A stretch of DNA of 64,000 nt from Escherichia coli (GCF_003991155.1 NZ_CP031293.1), one strand, 5' to 3'; counted from the first letter of the stretch, positions 45,975 through 46,759 are shown. A program made the numbers and translations. Notes: generated from the letters alone by a model not told the origin.

Positions 45975-45982
45975 GTGATCTG
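45975..45982. repeat. Left copy of the IS1 target-site duplication GTGATCTG(G)
   Basis: Identical 8-9 bp sequence recurs at 46751..46758(9), immediately after IS1. Confidence 0.7.
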
Positions 45983-46037
45983 GGTGATGCTGCCAACTTA
46001 CTGATTTAGTGTATGATGGTGTTTTTGAGGTGCTCCA

Positions 46038-46313
46038 GTGGCTTCTGTTTCTATCAGCTGTCCCTCCTGTTCAGCTACTGACGGAGTGGTGCGTAACGGC
46101 AAAAGCACCGCCGGACATCAGCGCTATCTCTGCTCTCATTGCCGTAAAACATGGCAACTGCAGTTCACTTACACCGCTTCTCAACCCGGTACGCACCAGA
46201 AAATCATTGATATGGCCATGAATGGCGTTGGATGCCGGGCAACCGCCCGCATTATGGGCGTTGGCCTCAACACGATTTTCCGCCATTTAAAAAACTCAGG
46301 CCGCAGTCGGTAA
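46038..46313 (+). CDS. insA: IS1 protein InsA
   Basis: 91-aa [42 protein letters not shown]... starting at nt 56 of IS1. Confidence 0.9.
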
Positions 46314-46735
46314 CCTCGCGCATACAGCCGGGCAGTGACGTCATCGTCTGCGCGGAAATGGACGAACAGTGGGGATACGTCGGGGCTAAATCGCGCCAGC
46401 GCTGGCTGTTTTACGCGTATGACAGGCTCCGGAAGACGGTTGTTGCGCACGTATTCGGTGAACGCACTATGGCGACGCTGGGGCGTCTTATGAGCCTGCT
46501 GTCACCCTTTGACGTGGTGATATGGATGACGGATGGCTGGCCGCTGTATGAATCCCGCCTGAAGGGAAAGCTGCACGTAATCAGCAAGCGATATACGCAG
46601 CGAATTGAGCGGCATAACCTGAATCTGAGGCAGCACCTGGCACGGCTGGGACGGAAGTCGCTGTCGTTTTCAAAATCGGTGGAGCTGCATGACAAAGTCA
46701 TCGGGCATTATCTGAACATAAAACACTATCAATAA
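46232..46735 (+). CDS. insB: IS1 InsB reading frame (expressed as InsAB' transposase by -1 frameshift)
   Basis: 167-codon frame overlapping the insA 3' end in the -1 frame, as in canonical IS1. Confidence 0.85.
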
Positions 46736-46750
46736 GTTGGAGTCATTACC

Positions 46751-46759
46751 GTGATCTGG
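46751..46759. repeat. Right copy of the IS1 target-site duplication
   Basis: GTGATCTGG directly after the IS1 right end. Confidence 0.7.

What the first reader, a model, noticed from the sequence alone, without database searches (positions are those of the whole stretch)
45975..46759. IS1 insertion splits the acid-resistance regulator gene gadX
A complete 768-bp IS1 with both terminal inverted repeats and the insA/insB frames sits inside gadX, flanked by a direct duplication GTGATCTG(G). The gadX frame from ATG 45881 keeps 34 native codons, enters IS1 and stops at TAG 46007..46009. The remaining roughly 240 codons (46751..47481) are in frame but detached from the start codon and promoter. GadX is an AraC-type activator in the gadE/gadA/gadBC circuit, so this strain is probably GadX-null, with acid-resistance control left to GadE and GadW. 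Because gadA and gadX are normally co-transcribed, IS1 also changes the 3' end of the gadA transcript.
Basis: partly seen in the sequence, partly recalled or inferred. Interest (0 to 1): 0.6.

Follow-up and report, generated by a model that had tools for sequence, protein, structure and literature searches.

The report
IS1 insertion that breaks gadX
A complete, still-functional IS1 jumping gene has landed 34 codons into the acid-resistance regulator gene gadX and knocked it out; this is an ordinary, already annotated gene disruption that marks a sub-branch of the globally spread E. coli ST457 lineage.

Summary
A 768-bp IS1 (45983..46750, same direction as gadX) sits after gadX codon 34, flanked by an 8-bp target duplication, GTGATCTG. 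Removing IS1 and one repeat restores an intact 274-codon gadX. That restored sequence is 100% identical to uninterrupted genomes, so this is a clean simple transposition and not an artefact.

The identical allele occurs in 33 of 5,426 complete E. coli genomes. Four of these are documented as ST457, and RefSeq annotates the gene as a pseudogene. ST457 is polymorphic for the insertion: strain 1517k (ST457) and a near-identical relative (4 SNPs in 34.6 kb) have intact gadX.

The strain is almost certainly GadX-null. The remaining frame has no start codon before GTG 46786, no ribosome-binding site and no promoter-like site. gadA, gadW, gadE, mdtEF, hdeABD and the GadY sRNA are all intact, so any acid-resistance defect is probably mild (inferred, not tested).

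gadX is split by IS1 at 13 or more different positions in unrelated E. coli, in at least 68 genomes.

Verdict: real, ordinary and already annotated; low interest.

The parts
44112..45512 (+). gadA (glutamate decarboxylase), intact, upstream partner in the gadAX operon
   Evidence: 466-aa ORF without internal stops; annotated gadA in the 99.98%-identical strain 2016C-3878
45815..45842 (+). promoter-like site in the gadA-gadX spacer (TTGACT-16-TACATT), a candidate gadX promoter; untouched by IS1
   Evidence: consensus scan only; not evidence of function
45881..45982 (+). gadX 5' fragment, 34 native codons
   Evidence: identical to nt 1-102 of uninterrupted gadX in TCM3e1
45881..46009 (+). chimeric 42-aa ORF (34 GadX codons + 8 IS1-encoded codons, stop TAG 46007-46009)
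45975..45982 (.). left copy of the 8-bp target-site duplication GTGATCTG
45983..46750 (+). complete IS1 element, 768 bp, insA/insB co-directional with gadX
   Evidence: RefSeq 'IS1-like element IS1B family transposase, programmed frameshift', not flagged as a pseudogene, in an identical copy
45983..46005 (+). IS1 left inverted repeat (IRL); the promoter-like CTGCCA-16-TATGAT at 45990-46017 fits the known insA promoter position
46038..46313 (+). insA (91 aa, zinc-finger/HTH repressor and N-terminal part of the transposase)
   Evidence: NCBIfam NF033558 profile positions 1-81 and IS1/IS1595 Zn domain
46287..46295 (+). TTAAAAAAC -1 programmed frameshift motif joining insA to insB'
   Evidence: RefSeq joins the CDS here
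46232..46735 (+). insB' reading frame (catalytic part of the InsAB' transposase)
   Evidence: NF033558 profile positions 76-199, 143.8 bits
46728..46750 (+). IS1 right inverted repeat (IRR)
46751..46758 (.). right copy of the 8-bp target-site duplication GTGATCTG
46759..47481 (+). gadX 3' fragment: 240 native codons + stop, containing the whole AraC-type DNA-binding domain (HTH_18 = residues 164-242 of the healed protein)
   Evidence: annotated 'gadX, missing N-terminus' pseudogene
46786..47481 (+). longest residual ORF in the gadX frame (GTG start, 231 aa = GadX residues 44-274). No Shine-Dalgarno sequence and no promoter-like site upstream.
   Evidence: 486.7 bits, below the GadX equivalog cutoff of 500
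47493..47606 (-). GadY small RNA, antisense to the gadX 3' UTR, intact
   Evidence: Rfam RF00122, 150 bits against a gathering score of 45, full length 1-114; terminator-like hairpin plus T-run at 47524-47506 on the minus strand
47850..48578 (+). gadW, intact paralogous AraC-type regulator downstream
   Evidence: 242-aa ORF; annotated gadW

Best explanation
What happened. A single IS1 transposed into gadX by ordinary simple insertion. It landed after nucleotide 102 (codon 34) and duplicated 8 bp of target (GTGATCTG). The event happened once, inside E. coli lineage ST457 (phylogroup F), and was inherited by a sub-branch now found in people, livestock, pets and wastewater.

Effect on GadX (shown from sequence). 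Translation from the gadX start yields a 42-residue peptide. The DNA-binding domain lies entirely downstream of IS1, cut off from the gadX promoter and start codon.

Inferred consequences:
- The cell makes no functional GadX.
- Transcripts from the gadA and gadX promoters now run into IS1 and are probably ended or destabilised there, which would also remove the gadX-gadW read-through transcript.
- GadY loses its main target, and GadX repression of gadW is lifted.
- Glutamate-dependent acid resistance is still driven by the intact GadE, GadW, gadA and hdeAB-mdtEF genes, so the phenotype is probably mild.
- IS1 itself remains transposition-competent and could cause further deletions in this island.
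For: Anatomy of a complete IS1 with an 8-bp duplication. The healed sequence gives an intact 274-aa GadX that passes the NCBIfam equivalog NF007432 (585.6 against 500 bits).

The empty site is seen at 100% identity in 15 genomes, and the flanks are contiguous in TCM3e1. The identical allele is in 33 complete genomes. Four of them are published as ST457: CREC-544 (PMC9860340), AR13438 (PMC10100771), and MRY15-117 and MRY15-131 (PMC5430464).

Intact gadX occurs in ST457 strain 1517k (H152; PMC8072826) and in WP2-W18-ESBL-08, which differs from the window by 4 SNPs in 34,625 bp.

The HTH domain is at residues 151-242, all downstream of IS1. The downstream frame has no start codon between the TGA at 46690 and the GTG at 46786, no Shine-Dalgarno sequence, and no promoter-like site at the right junction.

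Other island genes are intact and GadY is intact. On regulatory wiring: GadE is stronger than GadX, GadX represses gadW, and a gadX mutant is less acid-sensitive than a gadE mutant (PMC4918353); gadAX is an operon (PMC4222967); GadY stabilises gadX mRNA through its 3' UTR (PMC10057817).
Against: No expression or phenotype data exist for this allele. Polarity of IS1 on gadW, loss of the gadA-gadX co-transcript and the mildness of the phenotype are inferred from K-12 literature in a different phylogroup.

A truncated GadX from GTG 46786 or ATG 46849 cannot be excluded from sequence alone. PGAP accepts an N-terminally shortened GadX (254 aa, starting at Met21) as intact in another IS1-hit strain, which shows that short N-terminal losses are not always treated as fatal.
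Confidence: 0.88

Rival explanations
1. Loss of GadX is adaptive, not neutral. gadX is repeatedly knocked out by IS1 because losing it is favoured in some niches, for example through lower cost of the acid-fitness island, altered gadW or mdtEF expression, or changed virulence regulation. On this reading, the ST457 sub-branch spread partly because of it.
For: IS1 splits gadX at 13 distinct positions in unrelated strains and in both orientations, and nt 494 is hit at least twice. At least 68 of 5,426 genomes carry an IS1-split gadX by annotation. Roughly 10 would be expected if the ~59,000 chromosomal IS1 copies were spread evenly.

An equally AT-rich control of the same size (gadE plus its upstream region, 36% GC) has 7 genomes in one orientation, against about 48 for gadX.

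Laboratory evolution repeatedly loses or down-regulates the Gad regulon (PMC13162491, PMC3071312). The carrier branch is widespread across hosts and continents.
Against: Counts are of genomes, not phylogenetically independent events, and the database is heavily biased by sampling. Two clones supply 44 of the 68.

gadX is AT-rich (41.5% GC against 51% for the window), and from my own knowledge IS1 favours AT-rich, H-NS-bound DNA, so target preference plus dispensability could be enough.

ST457 members with intact gadX are also successful (1517k, PMC8072826). The gadA and gadW controls were uninformative.
Confidence: 0.22
2. An N-terminally truncated GadX (231 aa from GTG 46786, or 210 aa from ATG 46849) is made from transcripts reading out of IS1. 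It keeps the HTH domain and so acts as a partial, constitutive or dominant-negative regulator.
For: The 3' frame is fully open, with both HTH motifs. IS1 is co-directional with gadX, so gadX-promoter or insAB' transcripts could continue into it. The fragment is identical to the intact allele, with no decay.
Against: There is no ATG, GTG or TTG in that frame for 93 nt after the IS1-internal stop, no Shine-Dalgarno sequence before GTG 46786 or ATG 46849, and no promoter-like site at the right junction.

At least 43 N-terminal residues are missing, and the fragment falls below the GadX equivalog cutoff (486.7 against 500). From general knowledge, IS1 is classically strongly polar. The lack of decay is equally explained by the insertion being recent.
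Confidence: 0.07
3. Assembly artefact or IS1-mediated rearrangement, in which the two gadX halves were not originally contiguous or IS1 is misplaced by the assembler.
For: IS elements are classic sources of misassembly.
Against: The two flanks carry the matching 8-bp duplication expected of a simple insertion. The flanks are contiguous in related genomes. The same junctions appear in 33 independent complete assemblies from many laboratories.
Confidence: 0.01

Closest known systems
IS1 (IS1 family; the 768-bp IS1A/IS1B-type elements of E. coli and Shigella)
   Same: Length of 768 bp; 23-bp imperfect terminal inverted repeats; insA and insB' joined by a -1 frameshift on A6C; 8-9 bp target duplication; transposase matching NF033558; protein WP_095033700.1 as annotated in RefSeq.
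   Different: Nothing structural. The duplication is 8 bp rather than the more usual 9, which is a known alternative (PMC12428005).
gadX (yhiX) of the E. coli acid fitness island, as in K-12 and in uninterrupted phylogroup-F strains (WP_001182735.1)
   Same: Same synteny ccp-gadA-gadX-gadW-mdtF-mdtE-gadE-hdeD-hdeAB-yhiD. The healed protein is full-length GadX, 100% identical at DNA level to the TCM3e1, 1517k and WP2-W18-ESBL-08 allele.
   Different: Here the gene is split after codon 34 and is a pseudogene.
Other natural IS1 insertions in gadX (e.g. FDAARGOS_1297 nt 59, AH04 nt 87, E138 nt 124, Z503 nt 454, STIN_95 and Nord58 nt 494, ECONIH4 nt 645)
   Same: Same element family, same target gene, simple insertions with 8-9 bp duplications.
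   Different: Independent events at other positions, in other lineages, often with other IS1 variants (92.7-99.6% identical). Some very N-terminal ones may leave a usable gadX.
IS-mediated deletions of the acid fitness island (IS5-mediated loss of 14 genes in aged K-12 colonies, PMC13162491; IS1-bounded deletion from gadX to hdeB in O104:H4 strain RM8376/FDAARGOS_772)
   Same: An IS in or next to gadX is the starting point; the outcome is loss of Gad regulation.
   Different: In the window only gadX is lost and the rest of the island is intact. The deletion is a possible future step, not the present state.

Membership tests
IS1 insertion sequence | Element of about 768 bp bounded by ~23-bp imperfect inverted repeats beginning GGTGATG / GGTAATG | tested here: met
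   45983..46750 = 768 bp; IRL exact and IRR 18/23 complementary to it
IS1 insertion sequence | insA and insB' frames joined by -1 frameshifting at an A6C motif, giving an IS1-family transposase | tested here: met
   Frames open; TTAAAAAAC at 46287; NF033558 covered 1-81 by insA and 76-199 by insB'; RefSeq CDS with programmed frameshift on the identical sequence
IS1 insertion sequence | 8- or 9-bp direct duplication of the target | tested here: met
   GTGATCTG on both sides; the single-copy target is seen in uninterrupted genomes; 8 or 9 bp per PMC12428005
IS1 insertion sequence | Actual transposition activity | not testable with these tools
   Needs a mating-out or papillation assay
GadX (NCBIfam NF007432 equivalog) | Full-length match above the curated cutoff (500 bits) | tested here: met
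   Healed protein 585.6 bits, residues 1-274 on profile 1-274. This shows only that the ancestral gene was gadX
GadX (NCBIfam NF007432 equivalog) | An intact coding sequence in the present DNA | tested here: not met
   42-aa chimeric ORF; longest residual ORF 486.7 bits, below the cutoff, profile 44-274 only; flagged as a pseudogene in RefSeq
GadX (NCBIfam NF007432 equivalog) | Position between gadA and gadW in the acid fitness island, with GadY antisense to the 3' UTR | tested here: met
AraC/XylS transcription factors | C-terminal double helix-turn-helix domain (Pfam HTH_18 / HTH_AraC) | tested here: met
   HTH_18 residues 164-242, E = 6.5e-18; HTH_AraC 151-191 and 207-240; all encoded downstream of IS1
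GadY sRNA (Rfam RF00122) | Match above the gathering score, full length, on the strand opposite gadX just after its stop codon | tested here: met
   150 bits against 45, model 1-114, at 47493..47606 on the minus strand
E. coli ST457 lineage (source of the window) | Seven-gene MLST profile | not testable with these tools
   The MLST loci are not in the window. Assignment is indirect: the window is 99.98% identical to 2016C-3878 and shares the allele with four strains published as ST457 (PMC9860340, PMC10100771, PMC5430464)

The most novel reading that the evidence does not exclude
gadX is a genuine hot spot for IS1-mediated loss of function in natural E. coli. It is hit independently at 13 or more positions, and at nt 494 at least twice. 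The excess would reflect selection for losing GadX and not just IS1's liking for AT-rich DNA. The ST457 sub-branch would then be one of several lineages that rewired acid-resistance control onto GadE and GadW in this way.
Probability: 0.2. Interest if true: 0.45.

Novelty: already known. Interest (0 to 1): 0.15.

Why it matters
For this window it matters little. It is a routine insertional pseudogene that RefSeq already annotates in identical form.

It has three modest practical uses:
1. The junctions (45953..46012 and 46721..46780) are a ready PCR or k-mer marker. They separate a sub-branch of the multidrug-resistant, multi-host lineage ST457 from its gadX-intact relatives.
2. Natural near-isogenic pairs exist, for example CREC-544 against WP2-W18-ESBL-08 or 1517k. 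These allow a test of what GadX contributes outside K-12.
3. Resistance and virulence gene screens that list gadX as 'present' by sequence similarity will miscall these strains.

The broader pattern of repeated IS1 hits in gadX would bear on how dispensable this regulator is in the wild, if it survives a proper phylogenetic test.

Tried and rejected
1. 9-bp duplication. The ninth base equals the first base of IS1. A 9-bp model would need a 767-bp IS1 lacking its terminal G, so 8 bp is preferred.

2. Orientation bias of IS1 in gadX. The first six cases were all co-directional, but the junction queries could only detect that orientation. A synthetic query with IS1 flipped found 46 more genomes, so there is no bias.

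3. Hybrid outward promoter at the right IS1 end. None was found.

4. Same-locus controls for the hot-spot idea. The gadA and gadW queries were contaminated, because the search tool joins pieces up to 1.5 kb apart and so picked up the gadX IS1. They are uninformative.

5. treF control. It returned 16 genomes, but the 8 listed have IS1 beside treF and not inside it. This showed that raw '>=80% coverage' counts overstate hits inside a target, so I used only mapped or annotated split-gene cases.

6. Suspected mdtE N-terminal truncation (369 aa in RefSeq). Rejected: the full MNRRRKLL... start is present at 53236.

7. Assuming the insertion is fixed in ST457. Rejected: 1517k (ST457) has intact gadX (PMC8072826).

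8. Primary papers on gadX, gadW and GadY (PMC3030618, PMID 12446650, PMID 11976288) are not held. Open-access papers were used instead.

9. Literature link between ST457 and gadX. Two papers contain both words once each. I did not open either, and no paper I read describes this allele.

Full report
**1. Is it there?**

Yes. Reading 45700..47600 shows IS1 at 45983..46750. It is 768 bp long. The canonical left end GGTGATGCTGCCAACTTACTGAT occurs once in the window and never in 100 shuffles. The right end, reverse-complemented, is GGTAATGACTCCAACTTATTGAT.

insA (46038..46313, 91 aa) and the insB' frame (46232..46735) are open. The TTAAAAAAC frameshift motif is at 46287. Together the two frames cover the whole IS1-family transposase profile NF033558 (positions 1-81 and 76-199).

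The element is flanked by GTGATCTG at 45975-45982 and 46751-46758. With a complete IS1 the duplication is 8 bp, a known alternative to 9 bp (PMC12428005). Five other insertions mapped have unambiguous 8-bp duplications.

The gadX start at 45881 gives a 42-codon ORF, 34 native codons plus 8 from IS1, ending at TAG 46007-46009.

**2. Is it a clean insertion into gadX?**

Yes. Deleting 45983..46758 gives an 825-nt ORF encoding 274 aa. This protein matches the NCBIfam GadX equivalog end to end at 585.6 bits against a cutoff of 500.

The healed 1,225-bp locus is 100% identical, in one piece, to 15 uninterrupted genomes (H149-H163). In TCM3e1 the two flanks abut exactly...GGCGGTGATCTG|GTTTTTGCGG....

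Synteny is the standard acid fitness island: ccp, gadA, gadX, gadW, mdtF, mdtE, gadE, hdeD, hdeA, hdeB, yhiD, then the chu haem cluster.

**3. Is it real, and who has it?**

The full 2,001-bp interval 45600..47600 is found in one piece at 99.9% identity or better in 33 of 5,426 complete E. coli genomes (H181-H213). The same 33 appear with the left-junction query and as the two-piece rows in the healed-locus search. That many independent assemblies exclude an artefact.

RefSeq annotates the identical sequence as 'AraC family regulator, incomplete' + 'IS1-like element IS1B family transposase, programmed frameshift' + 'gadX, missing N-terminus'.

Four carriers are published as ST457, with three different O antigens:
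- CREC-544 (PMC9860340)
- AR13438, O25:H25 (PMC10100771)
- MRY15-117, O11:H25, and MRY15-131, O1:H25 (PMC5430464)

ST457 belongs to phylogroup F (PMC8072826). This fits the 99.8% match of the healed locus to the reference strain IAI39. IAI39's placement in phylogroup F is from my own knowledge.

The window itself is 99.98% identical to carrier 2016C-3878 but lacks that strain's IS621 in bcsG.

The insertion is not fixed in ST457. Strain 1517k, described as ST457 (PMC8072826), has the uninterrupted allele (H152). WP2-W18-ESBL-08, also uninterrupted, differs from the window by only 4 substitutions in 34,625 bp. TCM3e1 (ST1722, PMC8801394) is 99.55% identical over the same span.

The simplest reading is one recent insertion inside ST457. 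The gadX fragments show no secondary decay: 28 of the 33 carriers are identical to the healed allele, and the rest differ by 1-2 bases.

**4. What does it do?**

*Shown from sequence.* The whole AraC-type DNA-binding domain (HTH_AraC 151-191 and 207-240; HTH_18 164-242) lies downstream of IS1.
- The downstream frame opens after a TGA at 46690, inside IS1. It has no ATG, GTG or TTG until GTG 46786, which corresponds to GadX residue 44.
- Neither that GTG nor the next in-frame ATG (46849) is preceded by a Shine-Dalgarno sequence.
- No promoter-like site lies at the right junction.
- The 231-aa residual ORF scores 486.7 bits, below the GadX cutoff.

*Inferred.* The strain makes no functional GadX.

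In K-12, gadA and gadX form an operon (PMC4222967). A gadX-gadW transcript is also known, from Opdyke et al. 2011 as cited in PMC10057817. Transcripts entering IS1 are probably truncated, given the classic polarity of IS1 (my own knowledge). That would change the gadA 3' end and remove gadW read-through.

gadW keeps its own region upstream of 47850. A promoter there, divergent from gadY, is reported in K-12 (Tramonti et al. 2008, known to me only from its title as cited in PMC10057817).

GadY (47493..47606, minus strand, 150 bits) is intact. It has lost its main purpose, which is stabilising gadX mRNA (PMC10057817).

Three findings from PMC4918353 bear on the phenotype:
- GadX represses gadW.
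- GadE is the much stronger activator.
- gadX mutants are less acid-sensitive than gadE mutants.

gadA, gadW, gadE, mdtEF, hdeABD and yhiD are all intact in the window. I therefore expect a mild or condition-dependent effect on glutamate-dependent acid resistance. None of this was measured.

**5.

While checking junctions I found IS1 at other places in gadX. The first queries could only detect co-directional IS1, so I repeated the search with IS1 flipped in silico.

Eighteen fetched examples were mapped. They give 13 distinct coding positions: nt 23, 59, 87, 102, 124, 154, 250, 306, 340, 454, 494, 506 and 645. A further two sites lie in the gadA-gadX spacer, and a nineteenth example (EC09) lies in the gadX-gadW spacer. 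Both orientations occur.

Position 494 is used in three strains:
- STIN_95 (co-directional)
- an O104:H4 reference-material strain (co-directional, with a different IS1 variant and gadX allele)
- Nord58 (opposite orientation)

This amounts to at least two independent events at one 8-bp target.

By annotation, at least 68 genomes have gadX split by IS1 (48, 20). Two clones account for 44 of these: the 33 ST457 carriers and an 11-genome group that I assume shares ECONIH4's nt-645 site.

If the roughly 59,000 chromosomal IS1 copies were spread evenly, about 10 would fall in an 825-bp gene.

A control of the same size and even lower GC (gadE plus its upstream region, 36% GC) has 7 genomes in one orientation. 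A GC-neutral control (treF) had none inside the target among the rows shown. Two other controls, gadA and gadW, were spoiled by the way the tool joins neighbouring pieces.

So gadX looks enriched. However, the counts are of genomes and not independent events, and sampling is biased. AT-richness (41.5% GC against 51% for the window) plus dispensability could be enough to explain it. I rate selection for GadX loss at about 0.2.

**6. What could happen next at this locus**

IS1 here is intact. In the O104:H4 reference-material strain, an IS1 at gadX nt 494 abuts an hdeB fragment with no target duplication. The gadX 3' end, gadW, mdtFE, gadE, hdeD and hdeA are gone. This is the signature of an IS1-mediated adjacent deletion. 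The ST457 carriers are one such step away from losing the core of the island.

**7. Comparison with what is known, and novelty**

Every defining feature of IS1 that sequence can show is met, and the interrupted gene is unambiguously gadX. Insertional inactivation by IS1 is textbook biology, and this exact allele is already annotated in RefSeq.

I read no paper in the held library that describes it. Two papers contain both 'ST457' and 'gadX' once each; I did not open them. That is a gap in commentary, not in knowledge.

I classify the finding as already known and score interest at 0.15. The most novel reading not excluded is the selected hot-spot idea, at probability 0.2 and interest 0.45 if true.

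Noticed in passing
L002 (FDAARGOS_772) 2439-3890; also NZ_CP064387.1 (O104:H4 RM8376): IS1 at gadX nt 494 is joined directly to a 3' fragment of hdeB with no target duplication. The gadX 3' end, gadW, mdtF, mdtE, gadE, hdeD and hdeA are missing, which looks like an IS1-mediated adjacent deletion of the core acid fitness island in this O104:H4 reference-material strain.
   Followed up: partly
L003 (STIN_95), L002 (O104:H4), L017 (Nord58): gadX nt 494: The same 8-bp target CGAAT(T/C)GC in gadX has received IS1 in both orientations, with different IS1 variants (97.1% identical) and in different gadX alleles. This is a site-specific hot spot within the gene.
   Followed up: partly
L011 (CX12) 1782-4449: gadX is hit twice in one strain: IS1 after nt 87 and an IS903B (IS5-like) further downstream.
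   Followed up: no
L004 (FDAARGOS_1297) 2551-3315; L015 (DFK.1) 1359-2183: Where IS1 sits very near the gadX start (after nt 59 or nt 23), PGAP still calls the downstream gene an intact GadX (254 aa from native Met21, or 274 aa starting inside the IS1 end). Whether these are expressed from IS1 read-through is unknown.
   Followed up: no
window ~12095-12109 (bcsG) vs L008 20080-21060: The closest annotated relative, 2016C-3878, carries an IS621 (IS110 family) inside bcsG. The window does not, so its cellulose-modification gene bcsG is uninterrupted.
   Followed up: partly
window 16668-16673 (bcsA): A 6-bp in-frame indel (CGCGTC present in the window) relative to 2016C-3878. Apart from the IS621 junction, it is the only difference between the two in about 52 kb.
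   Followed up: no
window 10911-11312 and 11395-11795: Two ~400-bp direct repeats, 96.5% identical, next to bcsG. They correspond to the duplicated ldr type I toxin loci annotated in the relative (ldrD and a second Ldr gene).
   Followed up: no
one search hits H318-H324 (e.g. O157 strain 180-PT54, O104:H4 2009EL-2071): Seven genomes carry IS1 inside gadE or its long AT-rich upstream region, so the master regulator of the island is also an occasional IS1 target.
   Followed up: no
window 57264-64000: The chu haem-uptake cluster (chuVUYXWT, chuA) directly follows yhiD, as in IAI39. This fits the phylogroup F assignment.
   Followed up: no
column places_in_record: Carriers have very few IS1 copies (1-8 places per chromosome record; PK12 has only the gadX copy). 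The gadX insertion may therefore be among the first chromosomal IS1 copies in this lineage, perhaps arriving from a plasmid.
   Followed up: no
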